A stretch of DNA of 64,000 nt from a virus. Taxonomy: Duplodnaviria; Caudoviricetes. The position numbers and the translations under genes are program-made. Below, piece after piece: positions 45,936-63,050 of the stretch; the first letter of the stretch is position 1; every line of letters starts with the position of its first letter. Location of the stretch: IMG/VR virus record IMGVR_UViG_3300046318_000318; one strand, given 5' to 3'. The notes below the pieces were generated by a model. It saw only the letters and a list, made by a program, of their open reading frames with translations, was not told the origin of the DNA and did not search any database.

Positions 45936-46925
45936 TTAAGGTAAGAAATCACACTTCATCAACCTCAGAAACTTTTCAGTATCTGAGATAGGAAATGAGA
46001 ACCCTGAAGCATTTTTATGCCCACCGCCGCCGTTGTGTTTAGCTATAGCTGATACATCCACATCTCCAGCAGCGTTACTACGAAGAGAAACTATCACCAG
46101 ATCTCTACCAGGGCTGACGATGAAGAAAGCACAAAACGCATACTCATCTTTAACAAGATCAGCCACGTTTGATACATACTTCATATCACAGTTCATAAGG
46201 GCTGCTTTACCCAACTTGGTTTCCACAGGAGTAATAAGTCCTTTCAGACGCTCACATTCTGCTTCGTAGAAGTCAAGCTCCAATGCTGCTTTGGTCCAGA
46301 CGGCTTTAAATTCACTATCTGACATTTCAAAGATCTTGTCCCAAGCTTCAAATGTCATCTCAGCATTCAAAACTTTGTTCCAGATCTTTGTACCGTCCAA
46401 TTTGAAAAGCCACAGATCACGATCTTCTACAGCCAACGCAGCATGGCGCAGTCTAGCAGGAACATCGATATCTTCAGAATCAATAGTTTCCAAAGCCAGA
46501 CCAGCGCCTGAACGATTCTGGATAAGTTTAGTGAAGAACTTAACATCCTTCTCACAACAAATCAGGTCAGGTCTCTGCTCAAGACAAAGATGATTGACTG
46601 TCTTTAGTTTCTCTACGTCAGAAGCACCGTAGATATCAATCGCTGTCTTGTGGTGATCAAGAAACGCCAAACACTTGAGGTTTGGGGATTCGTTGACAAT
46701 CTTAGCCAGATCATCTTTGCTGTAAGAATAGTCGATAATCCAGAACTCTTCTGCGTCTGTAGACAAAGCCTCGTCACCATACTGCACTGGTGTGTACAGT
46801 ACATCTAGACCATCCAACTCAGCTTCCTGGCTTTTAAACCAATGTCTGAGTAGATAAGCAGACATAAAACCATCGGTACAGTTCTTGTGGTACCGAACTT
46901 CAACTTTCATTTTTTCAGACATCAT
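45936..46925 (-). CDS. DHH/DHHA1 phosphoesterase (nanoRNase-like)
   Basis: YHKNCTDG, IIDYS, LDHHKT, GGGHKNASG. Confidence 0.88.
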   Translation of the reverse strand: MMSEKMKVEVRYHKNCTDGFMSAYLLRHWFKSQEAELDGLDVLYTPVQYGDEALSTDAEEFWIIDYSYSKDDLAKIVNESPNLKCLAFLDHHKTAIDIYGASDVEKLKTVNHLCLEQRPDLICCEKDVKFFTKLIQNRSGAGLALETIDSEDIDVPARLRHAALAVEDRDLWLFKLDGTKIWNKVLNAEMTFEAWDKIFEMSDSEFKAVWTKAALELDFYEAECERLKGLITPVETKLGKAALMNCDMKYVSNVADLVKDEYAFCAFFIVSPGRDLVIVSLRSNAAGDVDVSAIAKHNGGGGHKNASGFSFPISDTEKFLRLMKCDFLP

Positions 46926-47070
46926 GATACTTTCTTAAGTAAAACAAAAACAATTGAAATGACACAACATGCGCAAAAGAACCCGAGACTCAGGTATTGC
47001 ATAATGGAGAGTTCCCTACTCCACTTATCCAAATCCTCTTGTTCTTTCTTTGAAAGATTGCGGTAATCGT

Positions 47071-47484
47071 TCATTGGCTGAAGTCCGTTCTTGATTTGAT
47101 CATGTTCTTTGCTGTATCATCATCTGCATTATACAGACGGTCGCAAAAGCACTTATCTATTTCATTCACGACTTTTTCCAATTTCACCCACTGATAAAAA
47201 GCTTGACCGTAGCGCAAAGTTTTACTATCGTGTCTGAAATCCTGAATGACAGAATTGCTAAACGTTAGGCGATCTGTATCACAAACAAAATCATCTTTGA
47301 GTTCAGAGAAACGTTCGTGAGACAAACAGCGGAAATGTACATAGCGATTACCATTTCCGCTATCGTACCAAGCGGTAGTGCGAAGATGAATCAGATTTTC
47401 CACATCGTTACAAACAGGACACAACACTTCTTCATTCACAGTCGCCATTTGACCTGTGAAAATTTCTCTTACAAATTCTTTCAT
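47071..47484 (-). CDS. hypothetical protein
   Basis: 137 aa, CPVC near the N-terminus. Confidence 0.75.
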   Translation of the reverse strand: MKEFVREIFTGQMATVNEEVLCPVCNDVENLIHLRTTAWYDSGNGNRYVHFRCLSHERFSELKDDFVCDTDRLTFSNSVIQDFRHDSKTLRYGQAFYQWVKLEKVVNEIDKCFCDRLYNADDDTAKNMIKSRTDFSQ

Positions 47485-47499
47485 GATACTTCCTTTTGC

Positions 47500-47853
47500 T
47501 TAAACAGATTTATAACGAAGCAGATCCCAAATCTCTTCATCGGTGAGTATCTCATACTCTACCGGTGTGTTGATCTGAGCTTTGATCTTAGCATTTGATG
47601 TCCAGCAATTCTCTCGCTTGTGTTCATGGACACCAGGTCGTTGAAACTCAACAGCTGATTTGAGTTTCTTTTCATCGTAAATGATGGCTATCACACAGGA
47701 CTTGCCGTGCGATATGTGTTTACCCGGACCTTTCTTCGACTTGCCAGAAATTCGATCAGCCCAACAAGCTGCCTCGTTGATATCCCTGGTTACAGTACCT
47801 GGCACAAAACCAGGTTTCAAGAAAGATCGCAAGGTACCTTTATAGAATACCAT
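47500..47853 (-). CDS. hypothetical protein, weak ADP-ribosyltransferase-fold resemblance
   Basis: probable start MVFYKGT; pattern FYKGT...VTRDINEAACWA. Confidence 0.35.
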   Translation of the reverse strand: MVFYKGTLRSFLKPGFVPGTVTRDINEAACWADRISGKSKKGPGKHISHGKSCVIAIIYDEKKLKSAVEFQRPGVHEHKRENCWTSNAKIKAQINTPVEYEILTDEEIWDLLRYKSV

Positions 47854-47994
47854 TTCATAATAACCCAATAAGTTATTGGCTTTTGGGTTTGGTTTACTTG
47901 ATGAAATACCAAGTCTCAAATAAAGTAGATGTTGCCAAAAAAATTTACATAGCCTATACACCCGAGCCATATAGGCCGGGTGTATAGCTGTGTT

Positions 47995-48162
47995 TCATTT
48001 AACGTTTATATAGACCAATAGGAATAAAACCATGACTATTCCTACAGCCAGTACAAATGACTGACCATCAAGAACTATGTCTTTATATTGATCTTCTTCA
48101 GTTTCATAAGCACTCAAGGTACTTATACCAGAAGCTTCATCTTTTTCATTGTTAAAAAACAT
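47995..48162 (-). CDS. 55-aa single-TM protein (not in the supplied ORF track)
   Basis: MFFNNEKDE...FVLAVGIVMVLFLLVYINVK; lies between a gene and a terminator. Confidence 0.6.
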   Translation of the reverse strand: MFFNNEKDEASGISTLSAYETEEDQYKDIVLDGQSFVLAVGIVMVLFLLVYINVK

Positions 48163-48164
48163 GA

Positions 48165-48359
48165 TTATATTTCTGTTGATTTAACAATGATAGATAAGCC
48201 ATCTGGATGATAGCTGGAAGTGCTCTTACAAGCCATGTTGATAGATTCTTCTATAGATTCAAACAGAGGATGATTCTGTCTAAATCTAAGCTGTACGTGT
48301 TTCTCTTTACCTTCGTCATTGACGATAGTTGTATTAAAGACTATTTCGTTACCGATCAT
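48165..48359 (-). CDS. hypothetical protein
   Basis: 64-aa ORF with a 4-nt overlap. Confidence 0.65.
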   Translation of the reverse strand: MIGNEIVFNTTIVNDEGKEKHVQLRFRQNHPLFESIEESINMACKSTSSYHPDGLSIIVKSTEI

Positions 48360-48580
48360 GATTTATCAAACCTCTTTTTTATCTCTCTAAAAACTACCAT
48401 CGATAACACCAGAGCTGAAAATATATTCAGTAAAGGAGCTAAAGACACCACTATCAAAATACCACCTGTGGTAGCACTGAAGTCTACACCTCTCTCATCA
48501 TAAAAAAGATAAGCGCAGATAGCTGTTAGAACAAAACCAAAGATTACAAAAGTCAGATGTGTAGTTATAAGAAATTCCAT
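48356..48580 (-). CDS. small two-TM membrane protein
   Basis: probable start MEFLIT; hydrophobic. Confidence 0.65.
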   Translation of the reverse strand: MEFLITTHLTFVIFGFVLTAICAYLFYDERGVDFSATTGGILIVVSLAPLLNIFSALVLSMVVFREIKKRFDKS

Positions 48581-48744
48581 TTTAATACCGTTGTTGTAGT
48601 TACAGTCAAATAATTTCGGGTAAAAAAATAAGGGCGGGACAGTTTGTATCTGCTTGTGACAACCGAGTCTGGGTAGACTGATCACTTGCATCAACAAACT
48701 GTCCCTAATTAAGAACAAAGCCAACATGAATCGAACATGTTAAG

Positions 48745-49978
48745 TAAATATAACCTTCTACGCAGAATAGCACTGCTCCAGTTAATTTACTTGCCTCTAC
48801 CAGACGGCTTTGTTTCTCTATTTATTACAAGATAGAGAAGGATGTGTCAGTCACCGCATCCAAGATATTTATAACACCGACTCGTGTTACCGGTTTGTCC
48901 AAACCTGGTGAAAGGATAAGCTACATCTGTTTAACTCAATCGCCACATACCCAGTAGTTCAGGTAAGGGTTAAGATGATTGTGCTATAATAAGCACAGAG
49001 CCTTAATACGACAGTGTTTTAATTCATCAACATAACACTGAAGATACCCGAGTTCTCAATAGAGAATCTCGCTGTATTTTTGATGCCTAAGCACTCTAAA
49101 GCTATCTCTCCTAAAATAAGAGATAGCTTATAGGCTGCTCTCTGGGGTGATCAATCCCAAAGTTTACAACTTCCCAAAGATATCATTCATACAGTTCCCG
49201 ACCAAGGGTAGTCTATATAAGAGATATCCATAGGGCGTACGATTTGGCGGTTGGTTAGACCACCTTCTACTCCTTAACAAAAAGTTAAAGGCAGGCTATT
49301 ATCGTGAGCGCACCTCTTTCTATTACACACTTGTGATGTGTTTCGTCCTTGTGTTTAAAGCCTTAGGACTCATCAGATAGATAAGGCTCAAATGAAGTTT
49401 ATGTGGCCTCATTCTTTTATAAAGGGGTTTTCCCATAGCAGACTAAATGACTTCTGTCTATCTAATCTGCTACAGGCAAACACCTGAGTGCTAACTTGTT
49501 ATCATATCACAAAGGTAGATAACCACAACCTATTACAATAAAGACGTGTGAATCGCCTGCTTGCTTTGGCAAGAACAGCCCTCGAAGCTAGAGCCACATC
49601 AGGTCTGAACAATCGTCAGAACACATGATCCCAGGGGATTTAAAAAGCATCAAACACAGTTCTGGGAAACTATGTGCTAGATCGACAGTTTATATTTTCC
49701 TTGTTTTATCAACTAAGTGAAAATACCGATCACTTTATACTGCTCCATCGTGCGTGTATTTTGTTATCACGCTAACGTCCCGATAGTACGTTTACCTAAG
49801 TTACCAATGGTCAATACCTGCACCCTAGCCTTACGCCCGCAAGCGATCTATTAACTTAACTCCGTAATCCGCAATGATATACGCACATTAAGAAATGTTT
49901 ACACACTAGATTTACTAAGCAGCGACTTGTTAGTTACCATTGATACGATCAAGTCTACTCCGGTTTACTTAGGTTAAA
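48745..49978 (-). ncRNA. candidate large structured ncRNA B (about 1.2 kb)
   Basis: no ORF of 60 aa or more on either strand; many hairpins, a long-range closing helix and a 10-bp pseudoknot; starts right after a tRNA CCA. Confidence 0.62.
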
Positions 49979-50036
49979 TGGTACCAGGAACGGGACTCGA
50001 ACCCGTAAGACCCTTGCGGAAGTATTAAGTTTTTAA
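49979..50036 (-). pseudogene. 3' half of a split tRNA-Leu (anticodon loop to CCA)
   Basis: TTAAAA-ACTTA, long variable arm, ACGGG-TTCGAGT-CCCGT, TCCTGGT-A-CCA. Confidence 0.82.
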
Positions 50037-50046
50037 AGTACATGGG

Positions 50047-50355
50047 TGGCCCGCTCCGGAATCGAACCGGAACGCCCCTTACGAAAGCGTCAGATTTTAA
50101 GTCTGATCTCTACCACTGCAGTTTTCACTGCCACTTTAGTGTGTTTGTGGTCTGGACTATCCCTTCAACTACATCCTAAATGTTTAGCTGGGCGATTATA
50201 GTCTCTGCACGTCTTTCTATATTTCTATAGAAATTTCGCTCAGGATTGGCATCAGCAATTAACTGTTAAGCTTTCCCTGAATTTACGCCATTTTACTACA
50301 TTATTTCTAATGTAGGACACATCAAATATATGTCTACCTATTTCATCAGCGGGCC
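50047..50355 (-). tRNA. tRNA-Leu(UAA), interrupted at 25/26; exons 50355-50330 and 50107-50047; CCA not encoded
   Basis: spliced cloverleaf with acceptor GGCCCGC/GCGGGCC, anticodon arm UCAGA-CUUAAAA-UCUGA and a long variable arm. Confidence 0.9.
50108..50329 (-). mobile_element. group I intron, IC3-like (222 nt), at the D-stem/anticodon-stem junction
   Basis: P1 GACAU|/GUGUC with U.G; P10 UUGAU pairs with 3' exon AUCAG; GUAAAUUCAGGGAAAGC, GCCAAUCCUGAGCG, GCAGAGACUA, AAGGGAUAGUCC; omega-G at 50108. Confidence 0.92.
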
Positions 50356-50366
50356 ACCCATGTACT

Positions 50367-50867
50367 CTATTTCTTTTCTAATCTGTAGTATTCTTTCTTT
50401 ATTTCAGTTCTTTCGATGATCACGCCGCCATTTTGAACTTTGGCGCCATAAGAACCTGAACATTTTTTACTACAAAAAGGACCTGCTCTATTAGAAACAT
50501 AATTAGTTATCTGATTTTTACTAGGGGTAAATATTTCCTCACACCCAGCACACTTTACAGGATCCACCTTTACTCGTTTAGCGTCTTCACTTGCGTGAAC
50601 AGGCAGTGTTTTAACAATAAGGTTATTTAGAGAATTATTGGTGAAATTTCTATCGTGATGGTCAACAGTCTCACCGTCTTTTAACTTTTGTTTTAATTCA
50701 ATTTCTTTTAAAGCCTTGGGGTAAGAGATGGTTTTGGTCTTACCTTTAGTCCCCTTAGCAGCTTTTGAATTATTTAAAACAATATGCTGTCGACCATCAC
50801 TTCTGTGATAAGGACCTAAGACGGATGTATATTCTGGATATAATCCAAGAAGTATTTGCTTATCCAT
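50367..50867 (-). CDS. free-standing HNH endonuclease
   Basis: TVDHHDRNFTNNSLNNL HNH motif; C-terminal CAGC...FCSKKC Zn ribbon. Confidence 0.85.
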   Translation of the reverse strand: MDKQILLGLYPEYTSVLGPYHRSDGRQHIVLNNSKAAKGTKGKTKTISYPKALKEIELKQKLKDGETVDHHDRNFTNNSLNNLIVKTLPVHASEDAKRVKVDPVKCAGCEEIFTPSKNQITNYVSNRAGPFCSKKCSGSYGAKVQNGGVIIERTEIKKEYYRLEKK

Positions 50868-50871
50868 GTTT

Positions 50872-50898
50872 TCCCTTTACCGATTTGGGCATCCTGGT
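50872..50898 (-). pseudogene. 5' half of the split tRNA-Leu (acceptor and D-arm)
   Basis: ACCAGGA-TG-CCCAAATCGGTAAAGGG-A; ACCAGGA is the exact complement of TCCTGGT in the 3' half at 49983-49989. Confidence 0.8.
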
Positions 50899-50962
50899 AA
50901 TATCTATATCTCACGTTGCAGTCAGTTAGAATATTTATCACTAAATGATTCTAGAAAAGGAT

Positions 50963-51037
50963 TGGTGCCGGATGTCTGATTTGAACAGACGACCTATCGC
51001 TTACAAGGCGAGTGCTCTACCCCTGAGCTAATCCGGC
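50963..51037 (-). tRNA. tRNA-Thr(UGU), uninterrupted
   Basis: GCCGGAT...GCTCAGGGGTAGAGC...CTTGTAA...TTCAAAT...ATCCGGC-A-CCA. Confidence 0.93.
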
Positions 51038-51099
51038 TTACTCTCCGCATTCTATTACAAACACGAATAAAAAAATACCCTGTTTGACCAGGGGTATTT

Positions 51100-51648
51100 T
51101 CAATTGATACTATCGCCATTAAAGAAATTAGCTATGTGGTTATAGTGTTCTGTGATCTTGAGATTAAACACAGGTACATTATACAAACATGCCAAATCTA
51201 TAGCGATCTTAGTACCGCCAGTTCTTGTACTCGTAGTCCCTCTACCTATATAACCATCTCTGGTATAACAGATAACGAACTTACTAGGATGACTCAAATC
51301 ATTCCCTAATATCTGAAGTACATTTCTACCATAGAGCTTAAGAAGAGCTGGGGACAATTTATCCATGTAAGGACAAACGTTCTCCAGGATTCTGTAAGCT
51401 TCGTTTGGTATGTGATATTGATAATCTAAATCGTTGAAGCCTTTCCAGGGTAGATAGATTTCACAATTCAGTTTATTTCTAACACCTTGGTAGAACGCTG
51501 AGTCTGCTCCTTCAGCACCACCTGAACGCAAGATGTATTGCTTCTGCTCTAGAAGAGCAGCTACTTTAGTCATAGCGTCCAGATAGAACTGAGGAGTATC
51601 TCTGTTACCTATACCTGTGTAGGTACGGTTACTGAGTAGATCAATCAT
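51100..51648 (-). CDS. SLOG/DprA-like domain protein
   Basis: YTGIGNRDTP, LRSGGAEGADSAF, GGTKIAI and PVFNL. Confidence 0.75.
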   Translation of the reverse strand: MIDLLSNRTYTGIGNRDTPQFYLDAMTKVAALLEQKQYILRSGGAEGADSAFYQGVRNKLNCEIYLPWKGFNDLDYQYHIPNEAYRILENVCPYMDKLSPALLKLYGRNVLQILGNDLSHPSKFVICYTRDGYIGRGTTSTRTGGTKIAIDLACLYNVPVFNLKITEHYNHIANFFNGDSIN

Positions 51649-52300
51649 GACCTTCGATCTTCATCAGGATACTGGCTTGAACCATGTCGATAGAACCGTG
51701 ACAATCTATCTTGATGATTTTACCATAGTAGTTATCTGGAAGTTCATTACACAGCTTAGTCACTTTAGACATGAGAGTGCTATTAGCTTCATGGACATCT
51801 TGCTTCTTGTCTGTGTAATCACGCTGACCTTTTTGAAGTACTCGTTCAGCAGCTACTTCTTCTGACAGAGTAAGTACAAAGGTGATGTCAGCTGGTCTGA
51901 GTGCTGAGTGCACATACTCAGAATATTCAGTATACTTTTTCATGTATATAGCATCTTCAGGGTGCTCAGCCAAAGCTTGTTGATACAGAATGTTAGACAA
52001 GATGTACCTGTCTAATACCACGTAATCATTTTCTAACAGAGCCTGTTCGATTACTTTTTTGTGAGCTGCGCGATCAGCTGTGTAAAGATCGGAGATTTCT
52101 GTTCTGGACAGATCTTTACCTTCTCCGTTAAGGTAAGCTGCGATGCACTTACCTGTATCAGATTGATATTGAGGGTAACCAGACAGAAAAACCTTCAAGC
52201 CAAGCTTAGACATATTCTCAGCCAAAAGCTTAGCTTGAGTAGCTTTACCCACGCCATCGATACCTTCGATAGCGATCAACTTCCCGATCTTACTGCTCAT
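51641..52300 (-). CDS. tmk: thymidylate kinase
   Basis: IAIEGIDGVGKATQ P-loop, LDRY, PADITFVL. Confidence 0.9.
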   Translation of the reverse strand: MSSKIGKLIAIEGIDGVGKATQAKLLAENMSKLGLKVFLSGYPQYQSDTGKCIAAYLNGEGKDLSRTEISDLYTADRAAHKKVIEQALLENDYVVLDRYILSNILYQQALAEHPEDAIYMKKYTEYSEYVHSALRPADITFVLTLSEEVAAERVLQKGQRDYTDKKQDVHEANSTLMSKVTKLCNELPDNYYGKIIKIDCHGSIDMVQASILMKIEGHD

Positions 52301-52901
52301 TGATTTGTCCTTTAACAAAGTTGCGTGCTATGAATTCATCTTCGTGTTCTGAAATAGCAGAGAGAAGAATATTCCTCAGAAGCATAGGGCTTTCTGCTGT
52401 ATAGACCTTTTCAACCATATCAAAGAACCCACTTGTGGAAAGCTTATGATGTAACTGTTCAGAATTTGTAAACTCTGGATTTTCCCAGTTATTATCCACA
52501 ACTTTCTTTTTGTACTCATTACAGACCAAGAAGTTATAACGTTGGTAAGGTGACAGGTCCATGATGGGGAGTATACCTGATTTGGTATGATTTTCCCATG
52601 AGTTCATGTTGACCCACTTAGTGACTGAGAAAGTCACTTTGGTCTCACCAGTGATCCAGTCAAAGACATGATACAAAGGTGCGCCTTTGTGGTCTGTATG
52701 AACATGAGTCACGAAACCAACTAAGGGATCTTCCCACGCATCAGACTGATGATACACAGGCATGTAAAGCATATCCATAGCCAGAGTAGCAGCTACAATA
52801 TCCTTACGGGACTGAGTCTCAGTTCGTTCATGCATGACCCCATATTGCTTCCAATCAGCAAGCAGACGATCGAACGATGATTTCAGCATTATTTTGATCA
52901 T
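52290..52901 (-). CDS. hypothetical protein
   Basis: 203-aa ORF coupled to tmk. Confidence 0.75.
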   Translation of the reverse strand: MIKIMLKSSFDRLLADWKQYGVMHERTETQSRKDIVAATLAMDMLYMPVYHQSDAWEDPLVGFVTHVHTDHKGAPLYHVFDWITGETKVTFSVTKWVNMNSWENHTKSGILPIMDLSPYQRYNFLVCNEYKKKVVDNNWENPEFTNSEQLHHKLSTSGFFDMVEKVYTAESPMLLRNILLSAISEHEDEFIARNFVKGQINEQ

Positions 52902-52902
52902 G

Positions 52903-53307
52903 TTACTTTCCTTTTTTGATGATAGCCACGGTACGATCCATGACCAGGGTTTTGCTGTTGTTTGTGTGATAAAACAAACGCCAGCGAGTCGCTAACACTT
53001 TATTGTCCTTCATAACACGCATGTGTTTATCCGTAAAAGCTTTAGCAGGTTCTTCTGAAACCAGTTCAAGTCTCTTACTTTTATCAGAACGTGTCTGATT
53101 GAAGTTACTTAAAACCATGACGTCATATGTTCCATGCTGCCACAGCAATTCGTGAAACATACTTTCCATAGTTATCAACTCAGTCCTGAATTCTTCCTCA
53201 GACTGAAAGACTTCAGCGATGTCCTCAAAATCCATTAAGGAGATGGTTTTGACAAAAGGGCTGTCAACCATCTCTTCTAACAGTTTAGTTTTCTCTGCGA
53301 TACCCAT
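52903..53307 (-). CDS. hypothetical protein (probable start MGIAEK)
   Basis: promoter-leader cassette ends at the ATG at 53307. Confidence 0.75.
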   Translation of the reverse strand: MGIAEKTKLLEEMVDSPFVKTISLMDFEDIAEVFQSEEEFRTELITMESMFHELLWQHGTYDVMVLSNFNQTRSDKSKRLELVSEEPAKAFTDKHMRVMKDNKVLATRWRLFYHTNNSKTLVMDRTVAIIKKGK

Positions 53308-53419
53308 GATACTTTCCTTTTTTAAAGTTGAAATACTGTCAAGTAAAGTAAATAGGATCAAAAAATTATACACAGGCTGAAAAAAAATCCCCTCAGCTTT
53401 TGGCCTTGGGGATTCTCTG

Positions 53420-53674
53420 TCATGCCGTTGCCTTGATAGGCTCGACGTCATGGAAATACGATACTTCCATGATGATATCGCACGCGGCGAACTGACCCTT
53501 GATAGAAGGATCAGCCTTGAGACTTTCTTCAAAGTCTTTGATTAAGAGAGCGTCGACCCTCTTATCCTTAGACAATGAAGAACACATGCGCGCTATCTTT
53601 CGCGCTCGCTGGACCAGCTCAGTAGCCAAACGAGCCAGCTCAATATTGAGCTGTTGCGAAGAAAGTTCTTTCAT
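53420..53674 (-). CDS. hypothetical protein (probable start MKELSS)
   Basis: SD AAGGAG, own promoter motif and terminator. Confidence 0.75.
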   Translation of the reverse strand: MKELSSQQLNIELARLATELVQRARKIARMCSSLSKDKRVDALLIKDFEESLKADPSIKGQFAACDIIMEVSYFHDVEPIKATA

Positions 53675-53747
53675 GTTGTCTCCTTGATGTTTTAAACCAC
53701 CTGACATCTACAGGTTTTCCCAAGATCGGGAACGAACTAGCGATATA

Positions 53748-53783
53748 GCTCAAGTTAAGTATATGTCATTGAAATCTTTTACA
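53748..53783 (-). promoter_or_regulatory. repeated promoter motif (TGTAAAAGATTTCA.T.ACATATACTTAACTTGAGC)
   Basis: 36-nt copy at 63729-63764 with 2 mismatches; partial copies at 27577-27600 and upstream of the chimallin, beta-prime and gp68-like genes; TATACT core. Confidence 0.7.
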
Positions 53784-53860
53784 AAGATAGTCGGGTTTAA
53801 AAGATACACAGAGCCTTACGGCTCTGTGTATCTTAAGCTCTCAGACTCTCACGAGTCAGA

Positions 53861-54433
53861 TTACCACTGCTCAGCCAGCATCTGGGGAGCAACAGGCAGA
53901 CCGTTATACAACAGGTTGCCGGTGTCGTCGCTCAACAGATCCAGCACAGCGATGTTAGCGTGTGCATGGCGCTTAGCCACGGCATCGTCAATGTCAGCCA
54001 CCAAAGAGGTAGGCTTATTAGCGATAGAAGCCCACTCCAGGACCACATCCAGCGACTCATGTTCGCTGATCTTAGCCCAGGCCATGCCAACTGGATCATA
54101 CACGTAAGTGGCAGCGCCGATCAACACGGTGGTGTCAGCAGTAGCGTCCAACACCAAAGCCATCGTAGCGATGCTAGGTGCCAGAGCGTCACGAGCGGTG
54201 ATGTCTGCAACGACCTTCAGTGAAGAAGCAGCAGCCAGACCAGTGGTGATCTTACCGTCGACCATTGTCTCCAGTTCAGCAAACGTAGGTACGTGCTTAG
54301 CAGCGGTACCGGTGCTGTCGGAAACATAGATGTTAACGTCGTCGGTACGAACGGCGTCAGCAACCAAATACAGAGTAGAAGCTTCCAGTACGCCTGGCAG
54401 AGCTGTTACTTTACTAATTTTCAATTGTGCCAT
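53861..54433 (-). CDS. probable abundant virion/fibre-associated protein
   Basis: strong codon bias; N-terminus paralogous to 55628-56200; one HxH repeat. Confidence 0.6.
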   Translation of the reverse strand: MAQLKISKVTALPGVLEASTLYLVADAVRTDDVNIYVSDSTGTAAKHVPTFAELETMVDGKITTGLAAASSLKVVADITARDALAPSIATMALVLDATADTTVLIGAATYVYDPVGMAWAKISEHESLDVVLEWASIANKPTSLVADIDDAVAKRHAHANIAVLDLLSDDTGNLLYNGLPVAPQMLAEQW

Positions 54434-54554
54434 GTTAGGCTCCTATGAAGTTAAAGAGGAAATGAATACCTGAACTAGGTCGAGATCTTGATACTATTAT
54501 CTATAGAACTCTTTTAAGTAACCATGTTCCATATCATTGAGATAAGAATATTCC

Positions 54555-54782
54555 TCAAAAGCAATAAGCTTTAGGTTTAGACTTCTGTAACAATGTTAAG
54601 GAGTTAGGTGCGCCTATATACTTTACTGGTATTCTAACAGAACCTGGACCGCCTATCATAGACCCAGCTGCGATAACAGATTGACTGGGTGAGAAAGGCT
54701 GTAGGTTATTGGTAAGGGTAGAGAATTTTCCAGATGTTTGGTTTACGCTACCAGTTGTTTCTAAAAAGGATACAAAGGCCAT
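54555..54782 (-). CDS. small tail-cluster protein
   Basis: 75-aa ORF coupled to the upstream gene. Confidence 0.65.
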   Translation of the reverse strand: MAFVSFLETTGSVNQTSGKFSTLTNNLQPFSPSQSVIAAGSMIGGPGSVRIPVKYIGAPNSLTLLQKSKPKAYCF

Positions 54783-54785
54783 ATG

Positions 54786-55631
54786 TCACTCCCAAAGAAG
54801 TGCGCATGTGAACTGTGAGTTTAGGTTAGCAAAAGGATCATCCGCCACAGAAATGTACGTTCTAGTTACAGTACCCACAGGTTTGTAAGAAAAGATAGTA
54901 CCTTTAGGCGCTTCACTAACACAGACACCGCACATACCAATAAACGGAACAACTTCAGGCACATTCAAGAAAGATTGATATGCCTGATATTCAGCACTTG
55001 TGGTCAAAGTAGTAGGTGGAAGTCCTGGTAAACACCCATAGCCTACTAAGTGTCTATCGTAAGCTGTGTTTGTGGAGATGCGAACCGATTGCAAACCACC
55101 ACCAATAGGGATTAAGGATCCATAACCTACAGTGCTAATAGCTCCAGAAGCATCTACAGTTTTAGTGCAATTATAAATGCCTATAGGAGATGTTCCATTG
55201 GAACCAGTAGAGGCAAATATTAAGGTAAAGTGATAGCTAGTTACACTGATATAAGTCAAATGCAATTGACTTATGCTAGTGACAGGACGATTATGCGCCA
55301 CAGCTGTTTGAGCTGAAATGGCACCAGTGATGGTGCCGGTGCCACTACTACCTGTACCAGAAGTAATAAAAATCAAAGGGTAATCAAGAGCAGCGCCACT
55401 GCCGTATTCTATTTTAAAAAAGATAGAACTGTCCGGAAGTTTCCAAATTTCATAACCCGCAGCTGTGTTTATAACACTTGGTCTATTGACTGTTGTCCAG
55501 TTAATCTGACCCGTATCTGTGGTTTTGATAAGTCCAGCTGCTGTAAGATTGGAGCTAAGGCCTGATCCCCAAGCTCTAAACCCCGCAGATGTATTATGAT
55601 TAACTACCGCTGAATAATTTAAAGTTGTCAT
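54786..55631 (-). CDS. putative tail/virion protein
   Basis: 281 aa, Thr/Ser/Gly-rich beta composition, in the tail cluster. Confidence 0.6.
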   Translation of the reverse strand: MTTLNYSAVVNHNTSAGFRAWGSGLSSNLTAAGLIKTTDTGQINWTTVNRPSVINTAAGYEIWKLPDSSIFFKIEYGSGAALDYPLIFITSGTGSSGTGTITGAISAQTAVAHNRPVTSISQLHLTYISVTSYHFTLIFASTGSNGTSPIGIYNCTKTVDASGAISTVGYGSLIPIGGGLQSVRISTNTAYDRHLVGYGCLPGLPPTTLTTSAEYQAYQSFLNVPEVVPFIGMCGVCVSEAPKGTIFSYKPVGTVTRTYISVADDPFANLNSQFTCALLWE

Positions 55632-56200
55632 GTAACTATTTCCACAAAGATTCTGATTGACGTGAAGTTGGTATTTGAATCCAATTTAAATCTAAGCACA
55701 TCACCAGCCAAGACGTTTTTATTCCAACCGGTTAAAACTAGATCTTTTAACTTATAGCCGTTAGTGATAATGACTGGATTACCACCTAAGATACTATCTG
55801 CTATTACAGGCGGATAATTATCCACTGTGCTTTTCCAGATATCCATGCTTAGGGATCCAGGACCGCCTTCTGTAAGAATGACAATAGATTTAATCACACC
55901 TGTAGATTTACAGACAGTTGTAGGCATGTCTACTTCTAAAGGATCCAACAGAACTCCGTTATTTGTCCATCCGGCACCCACCATGTAGGTATTACTAGAG
56001 GTAGCTATAATAGCAGAGTTTACATAAGCTATGATGTCGCCATAGTTCAATAAACTTTTTACAGCAGTACCATCTAGATTACTCACCTTCAGTTCTAGAT
56101 CATTAGGTCGATCTATGTCTGAAGATGGTAATAAATACATGGTAGATGGCGTTAGAACAGCAGGTAGTTGGGTAACTTTACTGACGTTCAATTTTGCCAT
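55628..56200 (-). CDS. putative tail-fibre-associated protein
   Basis: C-terminal domain of the type seen at fibre ends (SLSMDIWKSTVDNYPPVIADSI...LAGDVLRF). Confidence 0.6.
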   Translation of the reverse strand: MAKLNVSKVTQLPAVLTPSTMYLLPSSDIDRPNDLELKVSNLDGTAVKSLLNYGDIIAYVNSAIIATSSNTYMVGAGWTNNGVLLDPLEVDMPTTVCKSTGVIKSIVILTEGGPGSLSMDIWKSTVDNYPPVIADSILGGNPVIITNGYKLKDLVLTGWNKNVLAGDVLRFKLDSNTNFTSIRIFVEIVT

Positions 56201-56210
56201 AAACTATCCT

Positions 56211-57317
56211 TTACCACTGAATGTCACCAATGGTGACGGCGTTAAGCACACCACCTAAACCCATAGCGTTGACAATAGTCTCTACTTGGGTTTGCAGATT
56301 TGGAACTGTAAGTTCAGAAGTGATAGCTGTTTGCAAGCCTTGGATCTGGGTAGCCGTGTGTGCGTGTGGTAATACATCATGGACACCAGAAGTGGCATTC
56401 ATGAATGTATCGACATCACGCATGATCACAGACAGAGCTGCATTAAAGTCAGTGACTTGTGCTGCCGTATGCGTGTGAGCGACTGAAGCCAAATTCATAG
56501 TAGAAACGATAGCCTGAACTTCAGAAGCGAAATTCAAGAGATCGGTTACACTATGTTGGTGGCTTGTATTTGCTTTACCAGCTACAGTAGTTTGCAAAGC
56601 TGTGATCAGAGTGCCTAATGCAGTAACATCTGAATTATTGGCTTTACCACCTAGAGTAGCAGTAAGGTTGTTAATCTCAGAGATTTCATGTGTGTGACCC
56701 ACACTAGAGAAACTAGCGATTGCGTTTGTGATCAGAGCCTGAACAAAAGCCGTCAAACCAGAAATTTCACCAGCTGTATGTGTGTGGTTAACGTCAGCTT
56801 TACCGGTAATTTGACTGGCTACATACAGATCAAGACCTGTTATGTCTGTAGTACCGTGGCTATGCACTGCAGCTGCTTTGGTGGCAAGAGCTGTGTTGAT
56901 GTTAGTCACCACAGTCGCCAGACTGTTCAGATCTGCTGCATTGGCCTTATCGGCCAGAGCAGTGACTAATCCCACCACCTCTGTGAGTTGATGAGTATGA
57001 CCTGCTGCTGACAGAGTAGCTGCTAATGCAGTTAACTGATCGGTAATATACTGCACCAGCCCTGGCACATCTGCCATGGCGTGAGTATGGCCCATATTAG
57101 ATTTACCTGCCAGTGCGGCTTGGGTAGCCGTAGAGATAGGTTTATCTGCGTCTGAAGTATTATTGACAAGATCCAGTCCCAGATCAGTTTTAGTGATCAG
57201 AGACTTGATAGCGTTCAAAGTGACACGGTGGTTGACACCACCGATGGCTACTACAGTTTGCTCAAGACCTGATGGGGTCGTAAGCATCAGAAATTCACTG
57301 ATTTTTTTACTAGGCAT
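56211..57317 (-). CDS. tail fibre protein with HxH repeats
   Basis: eight H-x-H-x(2-3)-[DE]-[VI]-x-G-L-type repeats; LGLDLVNNTSDADKPIS motif. Confidence 0.75.
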   Translation of the reverse strand: MPSKKISEFLMLTTPSGLEQTVVAIGGVNHRVTLNAIKSLITKTDLGLDLVNNTSDADKPISTATQAALAGKSNMGHTHAMADVPGLVQYITDQLTALAATLSAAGHTHQLTEVVGLVTALADKANAADLNSLATVVTNINTALATKAAAVHSHGTTDITGLDLYVASQITGKADVNHTHTAGEISGLTAFVQALITNAIASFSSVGHTHEISEINNLTATLGGKANNSDVTALGTLITALQTTVAGKANTSHQHSVTDLLNFASEVQAIVSTMNLASVAHTHTAAQVTDFNAALSVIMRDVDTFMNATSGVHDVLPHAHTATQIQGLQTAITSELTVPNLQTQVETIVNAMGLGGVLNAVTIGDIQW

Positions 57318-57360
57318 AATAACCTCTTTGTTAGTGACTTAGTCAGTCATAGCATGACCG

Positions 57361-57954
57361 TTAAGTCAATGTGCTATAATTTACCTGTAAACGATTACTT
57401 GTACCCATACCTGCTGAGACAAGTCTTTTGACATTACTAGGTAAGGCCATAAGATTTCTCTCTATTTCATAACGTTCTCTTTGTTGTCTGTAGCACAAAG
57501 CACCTGCCTTGATATAAAACAAAAGAACATCTGAAGTAGAAGCAGACTTGACTCGTTTATCGTCTAAGGTCAATAGAGGAGATGTGGCTCCTGGTATGAC
57601 CATGGTATTCTGAGCAGAGATAGTGCTGTCAAAGAACCAGAACTTACAGATGGTATCAGATATATAAGCTACCTGAGGTCTTGCTAATTGATCAAAAGCA
57701 AAAGACAATTCTCTAATATTACTATCAGAGAAAAGAAGACTTGGATTAGACTGATTATCTACCGAAGCTAAGAAAGCTGATAAACCATCTGTCCAGACTC
57801 GCCAAGGCTTAAACATCAATCCTTTTGAAAGATCGGTTAAGCTGGCTGGTCCTATTTCAAAGTCTTCTTTGTTATGTCTTCTGATATTGTTATCCGGAGC
57901 AAGCACACTGGAAACTATGGTGGTGGAGTTAAACAGTATGTTGTCAGGTAGCAT
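57361..57954 (-). CDS. putative tail/baseplate protein
   Basis: 197 aa in the tail cluster; LSFAFDQLARP and LCYRQQRERY motifs. Confidence 0.6.
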   Translation of the reverse strand: MLPDNILFNSTTIVSSVLAPDNNIRRHNKEDFEIGPASLTDLSKGLMFKPWRVWTDGLSAFLASVDNQSNPSLLFSDSNIRELSFAFDQLARPQVAYISDTICKFWFFDSTISAQNTMVIPGATSPLLTLDDKRVKSASTSDVLLFYIKAGALCYRQQRERYEIERNLMALPSNVKRLVSAGMGTSNRLQVNYSTLT

Positions 57955-57955
57955 A

Positions 57956-58894
57956 TCAGACCTTGTCCCAGTTATATCTGAAGGAAATAGTCAAGGACTC
58001 ACTGGCTGACTTAGTTACAGCCTGATCAAATTCATAAATGTGAACAGGATTATGGCCGACTACTATTGTGTCAAAACTAACAACACCTTCAGCTGGTATC
58101 AATGTTCGATAAAAATCTACAAATTTATTACCTGGGACGTATGTCTTTTCATGATCGTAAAAAGCACTACCGTAAGTTTGGAAAAGACTAGGCCAAGATC
58201 CAAGTACATCAGCATAATCCAACTTACCAGTGCAAAAACTTATAACGCCAGGTTTTTGAAATAGATCTGGCTTACCACTATTTAGTAACACATTCTCTTT
58301 ATCTATAAAAGATCTGACTCTACCTGTTCTAGCGACTCCGTTTATGTTAATGCTAAAAGGTTGATTTATGGGACTAAATGATGTTTTTAAATAATAATAA
58401 ACATCTAAGTACTCATCGTTGGCCACAGTCAGTGTGGTTGGATTTCCGTTTGTGTCTTTAATTAACGCTCTGGAAAATACTTTCATTTCCCCAGTTTGTG
58501 GATCACCTTGATATAATCCTATTTCAGTCAAATTACCCGAAACAATACCGGGTGTAAAGTTAGCAACTGCTGATATTTTGTATTCGTAGGGAAAAGTAGT
58601 TTCCTGAATAGGTGTAGGTGTACCATTCCAATTCACATACGTCCAAGCCAATTGACCAGAACCGTCTAACACAGGCTGCTCCAGTTGTAAATTGCTGGCT
58701 GCTGGTGCTGTTGTACCTGTGCCTAAAGCACAATATGTGGGTCTCCAAAAACCACCGGCATTATCTAGTGTAATGCCGAAAGTGGTAATGAGGTTATCAA
58801 AATCTGCTACTATCTCAGACACATCTGAATCTTTTTTACGTTTCGCTATGGTGTAATGTCCAGAGTAAACGTTGTTACCGGTTTTCTTTGTCAT
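57956..58894 (-). CDS. putative tail/baseplate protein, paralogue of 59355-60257
   Basis: shared DNLIT/DNMVV...GTGT/GVGN...FSRALIxDxNGNPTxLTV motifs. Confidence 0.65.
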   Translation of the reverse strand: MTKKTGNNVYSGHYTIAKRKKDSDVSEIVADFDNLITTFGITLDNAGGFWRPTYCALGTGTTAPAASNLQLEQPVLDGSGQLAWTYVNWNGTPTPIQETTFPYEYKISAVANFTPGIVSGNLTEIGLYQGDPQTGEMKVFSRALIKDTNGNPTTLTVANDEYLDVYYYLKTSFSPINQPFSININGVARTGRVRSFIDKENVLLNSGKPDLFQKPGVISFCTGKLDYADVLGSWPSLFQTYGSAFYDHEKTYVPGNKFVDFYRTLIPAEGVVSFDTIVVGHNPVHIYEFDQAVTKSASESLTISFRYNWDKV

Positions 58895-59355
58895 GATTTA
58901 ACAATCGAGGTTAGAGTTAGGGATCTGGTAACTGCATCATCAGCATGCTGATGGTGTATGACCAAGAGTTCTTGTTTTGAAACACCTGTCAATTGAAGAC
59001 TTCTGGTAACAACATCGTCATTTACAGAAGCTTCGTGGTAGGTAAATAGTTGTTTAGATATACTTATCAACTGTAAGCTAGATGTAACTTCCTCAATTGG
59101 AATATTTACCGTATGGAAGTTACTAGCCGCTATACTCACAGATGTCAGTTCAAGACTGCTACTTACAGTATCTGTTGCGCTAGGTATTATGTCTACAGAA
59201 ACATTAACAAGATTGAAACCAGGTTCTATCATGTCAAAAGTTTCTAAGCCGTATAGCTTACTCAATACCTTAGTTAAGGGCTGAGTTTTAAAAGAACTGG
59301 AAACTATGCGAGTTTCAGTATTCTTTTTCAAAGGTCCTGTTGTGTTGATTAACAT
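58891..59355 (-). CDS. tail-cluster protein with short internal repeats
   Basis: four V(T/S)xSL(E/Q/T)L(T/I) repeats. Confidence 0.6.
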   Translation of the reverse strand: MLINTTGPLKKNTETRIVSSSFKTQPLTKVLSKLYGLETFDMIEPGFNLVNVSVDIIPSATDTVSSSLELTSVSIAASNFHTVNIPIEEVTSSLQLISISKQLFTYHEASVNDDVVTRSLQLTGVSKQELLVIHHQHADDAVTRSLTLTSIVKS

Positions 59356-60257
59356 CAGACTACACCTTTCCGCATCCAGCTTGTTTCAATCGCCAAAGAC
59401 AAAGAGTTTTGATCTGTCTTCATGATAGGTGGATTGAACTCTAATTGATAAGCACCCAGAAACCTAGAACTACTTGCTATAAAAATAGTCTTGATCCCGT
59501 TAGGGAAGTTACCTCTGTCTCTATTGAACTTCAGATAGTGAGTTCTCTTATTAGACAAAGGTACGTAAGGATCAGACCTAAACTTATCAGCAGAGTAACT
59601 GGTGTTATAAACCGCAGACTCTAAGTTATCCACCATAGGTGTATCAAACGCAGTGGCGAAGTTACCTGAGTCTGTGTCCAAACCAGTCTTAAGCGGAGTC
59701 CAAGCACTACCTACGTTTAACATACTAGGTCTGATAGTGACTACGGTGTTGATGCCGTTGATCACCATGTTGACTGTAGACTCAGCTGGGTTGACATGAG
59801 TCTCTATCGTGTATGTTACGTTAAGACCTTCGTCTGGTCTTACAGTTAATACAGTTGGATTTCCGTTAAAGTCACGTATCAAAGCTCTTGAGAATATATC
59901 AGCATTAAGTGCATTACCTACTGATATTTCTCTGATAGGTTGTGTGATGTAACCAAATGGAAAAGAAAAAGAAACGTTAGTCTCTAGCACATAGGGTTTA
60001 ATCTGGGAATGACTGAAGCTTATGGCTTCAGTCACCAGACTCGTATGGCTATTCAATACTTCTAGAGATGTATCTGTCGGTAAAGCTGGATTATTACCCA
60101 CACCCACTTGACAGTCAGTAAGTAATACGTTGCTATTACCTATCTGTTCAAGTCCGTTATCGACCACCATGTTGTCGAATACGTGAGTGTTACGGATACC
60201 TTCTTTACCGACTATCTCTAGCTTGTATCTGCCTGAAAGTCGGTGATTGAATTTCAT
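59355..60257 (-). CDS. putative tail/baseplate protein, paralogue of 57956-58894
   Basis: IFSRALIRDFNGNPTVLTV versus VFSRALIKDTNGNPTTLTV. Confidence 0.65.
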   Translation of the reverse strand: MKFNHRLSGRYKLEIVGKEGIRNTHVFDNMVVDNGLEQIGNSNVLLTDCQVGVGNNPALPTDTSLEVLNSHTSLVTEAISFSHSQIKPYVLETNVSFSFPFGYITQPIREISVGNALNADIFSRALIRDFNGNPTVLTVRPDEGLNVTYTIETHVNPAESTVNMVINGINTVVTIRPSMLNVGSAWTPLKTGLDTDSGNFATAFDTPMVDNLESAVYNTSYSADKFRSDPYVPLSNKRTHYLKFNRDRGNFPNGIKTIFIASSSRFLGAYQLEFNPPIMKTDQNSLSLAIETSWMRKGVV

Positions 60258-60258
60258 T

Positions 60259-61803: not shown

Positions 61804-61820
61804 TTTATCTTCTTTCTAAA

Positions 61821-62984: not shown

Positions 62985-63050
62985 GATGACTCTTTCCTAT
63001 TTCGTGTTTAATAGATACTAAGCCTTTACAGCTTAGTATCTATGTAAGAA

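What the first reader, a model, noticed from the sequence alone, without database searches (positions are those of the whole stretch)
48745..49978. Candidate giant structured ncRNA B starting at a tRNA CCA end
Seen: about 1.23 kb with no ORF of 60 aa or more in a gene-dense genome. The 5' domain is closed by an 8-bp helix (49967-49974 with 49794-49801). Inside it, hairpin GACUUG/CAAGUC (49950-49955 with 49924-49929) has a loop (49936-49945) that can form a 10-bp pseudoknot with 49802-49811, with a U.G that works only on the minus strand. Many further stems, e.g. AAGCTATCTCT/AGAGATAGCTT, TAGCAGA/TCTGCTA, TTCTCTAT/ATAGAGAA, CAGTGTT/AACACTG. Established: large ornate RNAs such as GOLLD occur next to tRNAs in phages. 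Inference: a member of such a class or a new one, perhaps released by processing at the half-tRNA. Some 3'-region stems fit the plus strand better, so it may be more than one RNA.
Basis: partly seen in the sequence, partly recalled or inferred. Interest (0 to 1): 0.85.

Follow-up and report, generated by a model that had tools for sequence, protein, structure and literature searches.

The report
Phage RNA island with hammerhead ribozyme
The gene-free 1.2-1.4 kb behind the leucine tRNA of this freshwater "nucleus-forming" giant phage is a real, conserved and abundantly transcribed non-coding RNA locus that contains an unannotated self-cleaving hammerhead ribozyme, so it probably yields two long RNAs rather than one giant one; its function is unknown.

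Summary
The ORF-free stretch is real. It runs from the tRNA-Leu CCA (49979) to a terminator-like hairpin at 48705-48622, about 1.36 kb.

Six full and one partial homologues (92-97% identical) come from related freshwater jumbo-phage contigs. In all seven it starts one base after tRNA-Leu. It diverges 2-10%, against 15-36% at third codon positions of neighbouring genes. It shows no codon periodicity, and double-compensatory changes occur in several hairpins (5 observed, 0.5 expected).

Six metatranscriptome runs hold it; the adjacent coding DNA is almost absent from RNA runs.

It scores only 16 bits in Rfam, but 0.03 such motifs are expected per 64 kb.

In two relatives a tRNA-Asn gene sits in a linker just upstream of the hammerhead, so the locus is modular.

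No Rfam family, including GOLLD, ROOL and OLE, matches.

Verdict: a new, clade-restricted phage RNA island. "Structured ncRNA" is supported; "one giant ornate RNA" is not shown.

Earlier notes of this scan describe similar hammerhead-bearing RNA islands behind tRNA genes in other phages.

The parts
49979..50037 (-). 3' half of the resident, split tRNA-Leu, ending in ACCA at 49982-49979. B begins at the next base.
   Evidence: Sequence read. Relatives carry an intact tRNA-Leu(UAA) ending one base before B.
49324..49978 (-). B-5' RNA, about 655 nt, from the tRNA end to the predicted hammerhead cut.
   Evidence: Fold z -3.66 in sense and -0.87 in antisense. RNA contigs lie at 49353-49776 and 49460-50012.
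49679..49978 (-). Nearly invariant first 300 nt.
   Evidence: Divergence 0.7-2.3%, against 15-36% at third codon positions of neighbouring genes. Local fold z is about 0. The helices are at chance level.
49654..49675 (-). Covarying 9-bp hairpin (49675-49667 with 49662-49654).
   Evidence: Five of nine pairs vary and all are kept in six sequences.
49423..49485 (-). Long imperfect hairpin containing TAGCAGA/TCTGCTA. The tRNA-Asn(GUU) gene of relatives L005 and L007 is inserted at its foot, between 49427 and 49426.
49313..49389 (-). Type I hammerhead ribozyme motif.
- Possible pseudoknot tail 49389-49382, pairing with loop II 49365-49358
- Stem I 49381-49377 with 49323-49319
- CUGAUGA 49376-49370
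- Stem II 49369-49365 with 49349-49345
- GAA 49344-49342
- Stem III 49341-49336 with 49330-49325
- A17 at 49324
- Predicted cut between 49324 and 49323
   Evidence: Rfam Hammerhead_1 16.1 bits, E 0.23 on 161 nt. It is the only such motif in 64 kb. The null gives 0.03 per 64 kb. The core is invariant and only loop II varies.
48785..49323 (-). B-3' RNA, a string of about 14 local hairpins. Those with compensatory changes: 49071-49062 with 49057-49049; 48997-48992 with 48985-48980; 48890-48884 with 48877-48871. It also holds the 11-14-bp hairpin 49133-49119 with 49109-49096, whose loop varies.
   Evidence: z -5.46. RNA contigs lie at 48781-49070 and 49118-49306.
48740..48781 (-). 42 nt identical to the last codons plus downstream spacer of an unrelated gene in relative L005 (409-450). 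Probably a recombination relic. The RNA contigs stop here.
48622..48705 (-). Terminator-like composite hairpin: 11-bp stem GGGACAGUUUG/CAAACUGUCCC, then GCCC, then U7. The stem plus GCC also resembles an RNase P minihelix substrate.
   Evidence: Sequence. Four one-sided changes in relatives all give G.U in minus sense.
51078..51093 (-). Intrinsic terminator after the DprA-like gene. It marks the upstream limit of the tRNA-Thr / tRNA-Leu / B transcription unit.

Best explanation
B is the non-coding distal part of a phage tRNA operon: terminator, tRNA-Thr, tRNA-Leu, B, terminator-like hairpin. It is transcribed on the minus strand with the tRNAs.

Its 5' end is set by tRNA 3' processing wherever the tRNA-Leu is intact. 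A type I hammerhead ribozyme then cuts it between A49324 and A49323. One product is a 5' RNA of about 655 nt ending in a 2',3'-cyclic phosphate. The other is a 3' RNA of 540-700 nt starting with a 5'-OH.

Both products are selectively constrained, hairpin-rich RNAs that accumulate well above neighbouring mRNAs. The locus is modular, because a tRNA gene can sit in the linker before the hammerhead.

What the RNAs do is not shown. My best guess is a trans-acting accessory role tied to the phage's tRNA and translation programme, like GOLLD and ROOL RNAs, which also sit in phage tRNA islands.

Shown: non-coding status, conservation, covarying hairpins, RNA presence, and a complete hammerhead core.

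Inferred: co-transcription limits, self-cleavage, product sizes, and function.
For: Context
- The window is a chimallin-encoding jumbo phage with a divergent family B polymerase and nearly all genes on the minus strand.
- The homologous sequence follows tRNA-Leu(UAA) in all seven genomes.

Constraint
- B diverges 2% (first 300 nt) to 7-10% elsewhere, against 15-36% at third codon positions of flanking genes.
- Variable sites show no 3-periodicity (42/51/41), and nearly all small ORFs are broken in relatives.

Structure
- With the structure taken from the window sequence alone, 5 double-compensated pairs are seen against 0.5 expected (P<0.0005).
- Per-helix support is listed.
- Fold z is -3.66 (5' product, sense only) and -5.46 (3' product).

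Expression
- Six RNA runs hold 24-42% of B's sampled words. The equally long adjacent coding stretch is held by one RNA run at 5%, although the same DNA runs hold both.
- Contigs of four metatranscriptomes from three studies lie almost only inside B within a 7-kb stretch.

Hammerhead
- Every core nucleotide is present, with stems of 5, 5 and 6 bp, A15.1-U16.1, G10.1-C11.1 and A17.
- Chance expectation is 0.03 per 64 kb on both strands.
- The core is invariant in six sequences and variation is confined to loop II.
- An 8-bp tail/loop II pairing could serve as the stem I/II tertiary pseudoknot described by Perreault et al. 2011 (PMC3088659).
Against: - All homologues are at least 92% identical, so covariation rests on a few events, and the hammerhead stems and the first 300 nt have none.
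- Broken pairs in the global fold are only slightly below null (37-45 against 53-55).
- One-sided consistent changes are not enriched.
- The Rfam hammerhead score (16.1 bits) is well below the gathering score (34).
- RNA evidence comes from assembled contigs. These give no strand, no ends and no depth profile, and the runs were chosen because they hold B.
- Contig breaks near 49307-49352 coincide with strain-variable sites (49351, 49354, 49299, 49296, 49289), so they do not prove cleavage.
- In the window's own strain the upstream tRNA-Leu is split by an HNH/intron-tRNA cassette, so tRNA-type 3' processing at 49979 is uncertain there.
Confidence: 0.6

Rival explanations
1. One giant, globally folded ornate RNA of about 1.2 kb. 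Its 5' domain would be closed by the 8-bp helix and locked by the 10-bp pseudoknot. It would be a GOLLD/ROOL-like single molecule.
For: - The helices exist.
- A38G, G175A and A25G (numbered from the first base of B) all keep the proposed pairs as G.U or U-A.
- The whole 5' product folds better than shuffles only in sense.
- GOLLD also tolerates tRNAs in a linker (Kretsch et al., bioRxiv 10.1101/2024.12.08.627333).
Against: - Helices of this kind are at chance frequency.
- Local z is about 0 in that domain.
- The best long-range duplex energy is not beyond null (P 0.14).
- RNAalifold prefers different partners for the same segments.
- A hammerhead and a tRNA gene inside the RNA would cut it into pieces.
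- There is no Rfam match.
Confidence: 0.12
2. A cis-acting processing and stability module rather than a trans-acting RNA. It would be a long structured 3' trailer of the tRNA operon, and/or a leader of the small downstream genes (74, 64 and 55 aa). The hammerhead and hairpins would only define and protect ends.
For: - Hammerheads in phages are thought to process long transcripts (Perreault 2011).
- B lies between tRNAs and three tiny genes.
- Earlier notes of this scan read similar hammerhead-bearing stretches in Klebsiella jumbo phages as leaders of tiny genes (unchecked leads).
Against: - No RNA contig covers the downstream genes 48580-47995, although B is covered in the same runs.
- A hairpin plus U7 separates B from them.
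- 1.3 kb with sequence conservation as tight as first and second codon positions is far more than end protection needs.
Confidence: 0.18
3. A graveyard of mobile-element and tRNA debris (decayed tRNAs, introns, homing-endonuclease genes), transcribed passively because it lies in a strong tRNA operon.
For: - The neighbourhood is highly mobile. It holds an HNH cassette and intron-bearing tRNAs, and there are three different tRNA-Leu versions among strains.
- A decayed tRNA-Asn sits in L007.
- There is a 42-nt relic of another gene's end.
Against: - Divergence is 3-10 times lower than neighbouring third codon positions.
- Compensatory changes occur.
- No tRNA-like or intron-like match is found inside B even at E up to 10.
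- The hammerhead core is intact.
Confidence: 0.08
4. A run of small protein-coding ORFs.
For: A 37-aa ORF (49436-49323) and two plus-strand ORFs (33 and 45 aa) are intact in all relatives.
Against: - The 37-aa ORF is interrupted by the tRNA insertion in L005 and L007. Within the 29-codon stretch from its internal ATG, the only part left uninterrupted in L005 and L007, all three substitutions are non-synonymous.
- The plus-strand ORFs lie in the invariant part, so they are uninformative.
- There is no codon periodicity.
Confidence: 0.02

Closest known systems
GOLLD and ROOL RNAs (large ornate ncRNAs of phages and prophages)
   Same: They are phage-encoded and several hundred nucleotides long, sit in or next to tRNA islands, and have unknown function. 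GOLLD has two regions joined by a linker that sometimes holds tRNAs, and it was first found in lake metagenomes (Kretsch et al., bioRxiv 10.1101/2024.12.08.627333). B is freshwater-derived, directly follows tRNA-Leu, and carries a tRNA-Asn in a linker in two relatives.
   Different: B has no Rfam match at E up to 10. It contains a hammerhead, which to my knowledge is not described for GOLLD or ROOL. In B the 5' part is the most conserved, whereas in GOLLD it is the 3' region. No evidence bears on multimer formation.
Type I hammerhead ribozymes of phages and prophages (Rfam RF00163, clan CL00010; Perreault et al. 2011, PMC3088659)
   Same: The full catalytic core is present, with three stems and a GUA cleavage triplet. 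The setting is an intergenic phage transcript. A stem I/II pseudoknot is possible.
   Different: It scores below the Rfam gathering score because of a 15-nt loop II and a short stem I. It is a single copy embedded in a long non-coding RNA behind tRNAs, not flanking protein genes. Cleavage is untested.
Stable RNAs C and D (species 1 and 2) of the phage T4 tRNA cluster (from my own knowledge, not checked here)
   Same: They are non-tRNA stable RNAs co-transcribed with phage tRNAs and released by tRNA-processing enzymes, and their function is unknown.
   Different: The T4 RNAs are about 120-140 nt. B is ten times longer and has its own ribozyme.
Theta (minimal HDV-like) ribozymes directly behind phage tRNAs (PMC10879173)
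   Same: A self-cleaving ribozyme sits in the 3' trailer of a phage tRNA.
   Different: Theta ribozymes abut the tRNA 3' end and belong to the HDV class. Here the first bases after CCA have no HDV-like match and no P1 complement. The ribozyme is a hammerhead about 600 nt downstream.

Membership tests
Hammerhead ribozyme (type I) | Conserved core C3 U4 G5 A6 N7 G8 A9 ... G12 A13 A14 | tested here: met
   CUGAUGA at 49376-49370 and GAA at 49344-49342.
Hammerhead ribozyme (type I) | Three helices around the core; stems II and III closed by loops, stem I open | tested here: met
   Stems of 5, 5 and 6 bp. Such a motif is expected 0.03 times per 64 kb.
Hammerhead ribozyme (type I) | A15.1-U16.1 and G10.1-C11.1 pairs, and a non-G nucleotide at position 17 | tested here: met
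   A49341-U49325, G49369-C49345 and A17 at 49324.
Hammerhead ribozyme (type I) | Score at or above the Rfam gathering score (RF00163, 34 bits) | tested here: not met
   16.1 bits. E is 3.8 on 2.7 kb and 0.23 on 161 nt. The model also chose a register that puts G at position 17.
Hammerhead ribozyme (type I) | Covariation in the stems | tested here: inconclusive
   The stems are invariant in six sequences. Only loop II varies, at 49354 and 49351.
Hammerhead ribozyme (type I) | Tertiary contact between stems I and II | tested here: inconclusive
   An 8-bp pairing of the 5' tail 49389-49382 with loop II 49365-49358 is possible (-9.4 kcal/mol). In a nested fold the same pairing forms a rival hairpin.
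Hammerhead ribozyme (type I) | Self-cleavage giving 2',3'-cyclic phosphate and 5'-OH ends | not testable with these tools
   No RNA contig spans 49307-49352, but strain-variable sites lie there too.
GOLLD / ROOL / OLE | Match to the family covariance model | tested here: not met
   No hit at E up to 10 in four cmscan runs over B.
GOLLD / ROOL / OLE | Phage-encoded, next to tRNA genes (GOLLD, ROOL) | tested here: met
.
GOLLD / ROOL / OLE | Extensive covariation-supported multi-domain fold with pseudoknots | tested here: inconclusive
   Only local hairpins are supported. Homologues are too close to test long-range helices.
GOLLD / ROOL / OLE | Homo-oligomeric assembly | not testable with these tools
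   Needs biophysics or cryo-EM.
HDV-like theta ribozyme | HDV-type nested double pseudoknot starting at the first base after the tRNA | tested here: not met
   No Rfam hit in 49700-50000 at E up to 10. By eye, no complement to bases 1-7 (UUUAACC) lies within the next 60 nt.

The most novel reading that the evidence does not exclude
B encodes a new class of large phage RNAs specific to nucleus-forming jumbo phages. A highly conserved RNA of about 650 nt and a hairpin-rich RNA of about 550 nt would be released from a tRNA precursor by tRNA processing plus a built-in hammerhead. They would act in trans, for example as a scaffold, cage or decoy tied to tRNA supply or to anti-tRNA host defences. 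Hammerhead-bearing RNA islands behind phage tRNA genes would then be a widespread, so far undescribed type of phage locus.
Probability: 0.25. Interest if true: 0.8.

Novelty: new variant of a known kind. Interest (0 to 1): 0.6.

Why it matters
Large structured phage RNAs next to tRNA islands (GOLLD, ROOL) are among the most striking RNAs without a known function. Here is an unrelated example. It sits in a nucleus-forming jumbo phage, is visibly abundant in environmental transcriptomes, and carries its own ribozyme.

If the hammerhead is active, the two products have defined ends, and each can be tested directly. In a phage that separates transcription (inside the phage nucleus) from translation (outside it), an abundant RNA made together with tRNAs also raises the question of RNA export and of what non-coding RNA does in the cytoplasm.

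If earlier notes of this scan hold, hammerhead-containing RNA islands behind phage tRNA genes may be a recurrent design that annotation pipelines miss. The Rfam model scores this case at half its threshold.

Tried and rejected
- Rfam at gathering score and at E up to 10 on four sub-ranges: no large-RNA, intron, tRNA-like, RNase P, tmRNA or other ribozyme match in B except the sub-threshold hammerhead.
- blastn of B against 50,697 phage records: no match.
- Similarity of B to the rest of the window, including the other ORF-free stretches: none beyond chance.
- Search for more distant homologues. IMG/VR by protein and by DNA pattern, one metagenome pattern scan, and three protein searches found only one narrow clade. 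Next relatives are at or below 52% protein identity, or on contigs that do not reach B. Extra contigs were identical to known ones.
- Long-range duplex significance in the 5' product: not beyond null (P 0.14).
- A search with what I took to be the GOLLD accession turned out to be a group II intron model (RF01998) and says nothing about GOLLD. The all-family cmscans cover GOLLD.
- Strict hammerhead pattern (CUGANGAG..CGAAA) in five described chimallin-type phages (FLC9, AgentSmith, RP31, PhiPA3, MJ359): six matches, none with proper stems. I could not show the motif is shared with cultured relatives.
- Coding readings: no periodicity, and ORFs are broken.
- HDV-like ribozyme at the tRNA junction: rejected.
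- No whole genome is held for this window.

Full report
**Setting**

The window comes from a phage that encodes a chimallin homologue (PF25677, E 1e-34) and a divergent family B DNA polymerase. Its best polymerase match among 50,697 phage records is only 41% identical, so it is a distant member of the nucleus-forming jumbo phages. Nearly all genes lie on the minus strand. The DNA occurs in many freshwater metagenomes. No whole genome is held for it.

**Checking the observation**

No ORF of 60 aa or more lies between 48728 and 50366. The stretch begins at the base after the CCA of a tRNA-Leu 3' half (CCA 49981-49979).

Whether they exceed chance is another matter:
- Watson-Crick helices of 8 bp or more at any distance: 11 observed against 11.2 +/- 3.4 in first-order Markov-resampled sequences. 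The 8-bp "closing helix" therefore carries no weight by itself.
- Local hairpins with stems of 7 bp or more: 7 observed against 2.6 expected (P about 0.03).
- In 200-nt windows the proposed 5' domain (49700-49999) folds no better than shuffles, while 48600-49600 reaches z -3 to -5.6.

The ORF-free stretch is also longer than reported. The "123-aa ORF" 48356-48727 overlaps an 11-bp stem followed by GCCC and seven U. It is broken by a T7-to-T8 change in relative L007, where the gene was called as 74 aa. The real start is most likely ATG 48580.

**Homologues**

Flanking proteins and conserved DNA words retrieved six full and one partial homologue. They come from JGI freshwater metagenomes, one IMG/VR contig (120 kb, 44% complete by CheckV) and one GenBank metagenome contig: L001/L025, L005, L006, L007, L008 and L010. 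They are 92-97% identical over B.

In five of them an intact tRNA-Leu(UAA) ends exactly one base before the homologous sequence. L001 has a different tRNA-Leu with a group I intron in the anticodon loop. The window has a tRNA-Leu split by an HNH gene plus an intron-bearing second tRNA-Leu (also noted by earlier readers). The three tRNA-Leu versions differ strongly, but similarity starts sharply at the CCA.

No more distant relative could be found. The next protein relatives are at or below 52% identity or lie on contigs that do not reach B.

**Is it functional and non-coding?**

Against L005 and L007, third codon positions of the neighbouring genes differ by 15-36%. B differs by 2.0-2.3% in its first 300 nt and 7-10% elsewhere, which is about the level of first and second codon positions.

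The 134 ungapped variable columns fall 42/51/41 over the three phases. Nearly all small ORFs are broken in relatives. The one minus-strand ORF that survives (49436-49323) is interrupted by a tRNA gene in L005 and L007; within its C-terminal 29 codons, the only part left uninterrupted there, all three substitutions are non-synonymous.

I took the minimum-energy structure of the window sequence alone, so that it was not fitted to the variation. I then permuted column patterns among columns with the same window base:
- Double-compensated pairs: 5 observed against 0.5 expected (P<0.0005).
- Broken pairs: 37-45 observed against 53-55 expected.

So a set of local hairpins is under selection for pairing, while the global fold is mostly unsupported. 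The best cases are:
- 49675-49667 with 49662-49654 (five variable pairs, all kept)
- 49071-49062 with 49057-49049 (G-C to U-A)
- 48997-48992 with 48985-48980 (U-A to C-G)
- 48890-48884 with 48877-48871 (A-U to G-C and C-G to U-A)
- the 11-bp hairpin at 49129-49099, whose loop is replaced in two strains while the stem is kept

The predicted 5' product folds better than shuffles only in minus sense (z -3.66 against -0.87). The 3' product does so on both strands (-5.5 and -5.7).

**Is it RNA?**

Six metatranscriptome runs hold 24-42% of B's sampled words. An equally long coding stretch next door (51100-52350) is held by the same DNA runs but by only one RNA run, at 5%.

I laid four RNA runs from three studies on 46000-53000. 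The phage-matching contigs lie at 48781-49070, 49118-49306, 49353-49776 and 49460-50012, which is inside B and across the tRNA junction. None lies in 47200-48780 or 50200-53000. The exceptions are two 151-nt pieces in one run at 46839-47185. The short tRNA-sized matches belong to other organisms.

DNA contamination would cover the flanks equally, so B is an abundant transcript. These are contigs, so strand, ends and levels are not shown. The breaks between contigs coincide with strain-variable patches.

**The hammerhead**

Reading the alignment, I saw CUGAUGAG-UCC...GGA-CGAAAC at 49376-49340. The element has:
- stem I UCUAU/AUAGA (49381-49377 with 49323-49319)
- the full core
- stem II GUCCU/AGGAC with a 15-nt loop
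- GAA
- stem III ACACAU/GUGUGU with a 5-nt loop
- A15.1-U16.1 and G10.1-C11.1
- a GUA triplet with A17 at 49324

The cut is therefore predicted between 49324 and 49323.

Rfam's Hammerhead_1 model finds it, but at 16.1 bits against a gathering score of 34, and in a register that puts G at position 17. A scan written for this architecture finds no other case in 64 kb on either strand. Markov-simulated windows give 0.03 hits per 64 kb even at the weaker threshold of 4/4/4 bp.

The core and stems are invariant in six sequences, and the only variable positions are in loop II. The eight bases 5' of stem I (49389-49382) can pair with loop II (49365-49358, -9.4 kcal/mol). This may be the stem I/stem II pseudoknot that Perreault et al. 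describe as common in natural hammerheads, or it may be a competing hairpin. Hammerheads in phage and prophage transcripts are established (PMC3088659). Cleavage here is inferred, not shown.

**Architecture**

The unit is bounded upstream by an intrinsic terminator after the DprA-like gene (51093-51078). Downstream it is bounded by the composite hairpin 48705-48636 followed by GCCC and U7. Four one-sided substitutions in that hairpin in relatives all give G.U in minus sense.

Between these limits lie, in order:
- tRNA-Thr
- tRNA-Leu (split in this strain)
- the nearly invariant 300 nt
- a hypervariable, covarying hairpin region
- a long hairpin (49485-49423)
- the point where L005 carries a complete tRNA-Asn(GUU) and L007 a decayed copy (between 49427 and 49426)
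- the hammerhead
- about 14 hairpins
- a 42-nt piece identical to the end of an unrelated gene in L005
- the terminal hairpin

A tRNA gene and a ribozyme inside the stretch both argue for separate modules, not one indivisible fold.

The few substitutions that touch it are compatible with it:
- A38G and G175A (numbered from the first base of B) keep the 10-bp pairing, as G.U and U-A.
- A25G in two RNA contigs keeps GACUUG/CAAGUC as G.U.
- G29U in L008 breaks a terminal pair.

All of these are one-sided, and RNAalifold pairs the same segments elsewhere. The best long-range duplex is not beyond null. This part therefore cannot be decided with the sequences available. Its extreme conservation without local thermodynamic signal remains unexplained.

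**Comparison with known systems**

No Rfam family matches.

By design the locus resembles GOLLD and ROOL. These are phage-encoded, sit at tRNA islands and have unknown function, and GOLLD sometimes carries tRNAs in its linker. Membership is not met by the covariance models.

It also resembles the stable RNAs of the T4 tRNA cluster (from my own knowledge) and, loosely, the theta ribozymes behind phage tRNAs (PMC10879173). There is, however, no HDV-like element at the junction.

A strict hammerhead pattern gave no convincing hit in five cultured chimallin-type phages.

Earlier notes of this scan, which are unchecked leads, report ORF-free RNA islands with type I hammerheads behind tRNA genes or in long leaders in several other phages. 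I found the hammerhead before reading those notes. The RNase P minihelix reading of the terminal hairpin is compatible with the sequence but untested.

**Verdict**

This is a genuine, expressed, selectively constrained non-coding RNA locus, most likely two long RNAs separated by a hammerhead. It belongs to no described family and is known only from one narrow clade of freshwater jumbo phages.

Noticed in passing
window 48356-48727: The 123-aa ORF is probably a 74-aa gene starting at ATG 48580. Its first 49 codons run through a hairpin plus T7 and are frameshifted in relative L007.
   Followed up: partly
window 48740-48781 and L005 409-450: 42 nt are identical between the 3' part of B and the last codons plus spacer of a gene upstream of thymidylate kinase in a relative. 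This looks like a recombination relic or a shared signal.
   Followed up: partly
L005 2524-2599; L007 4984-5156: A complete tRNA-Asn(GUU) is inserted in B in L005, flanked by a CCCTTT repeat. In L007 the same tRNA keeps only its 5' half, followed by about 120 nt of unrelated sequence that the source called as a 66-aa gene.
   Followed up: partly
L001 5010-5596: This relative has a different tRNA-Leu, interrupted in the anticodon loop by an intron of about 500 nt. The window has an HNH plus intron-tRNA cassette instead, and L005-L008 have an intact gene. That makes three states of one locus.
   Followed up: no
window 37309-37528: A further group I intron scores just under the Rfam gathering score (49.1 against 50 bits), next to the one at 36974-37227.
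   Followed up: no
window 49776: In RNA run X22 a 446-nt contig (49353-49776, the deepest contig on B) ends at 49776 and runs straight into an Illumina adapter. This suggests many fragments end there, perhaps at an RNA end inside the conserved 5' part.
   Followed up: no
L008 1-6000 against window 51021-63521: The IMG/VR relative lacks several blocks present in the window (about 62958-61816, 61753-60563, 59980-57500 and 56213-54480). The genomes are strongly mosaic.
   Followed up: no
window 48632-48705: The terminal hairpin has an 11-bp acceptor/T-like stem followed by G-CC, the elements bacterial RNase P recognises in minihelix substrates. The U-run starts 7 nt after the stem, which is far for an intrinsic terminator.
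   Followed up: no
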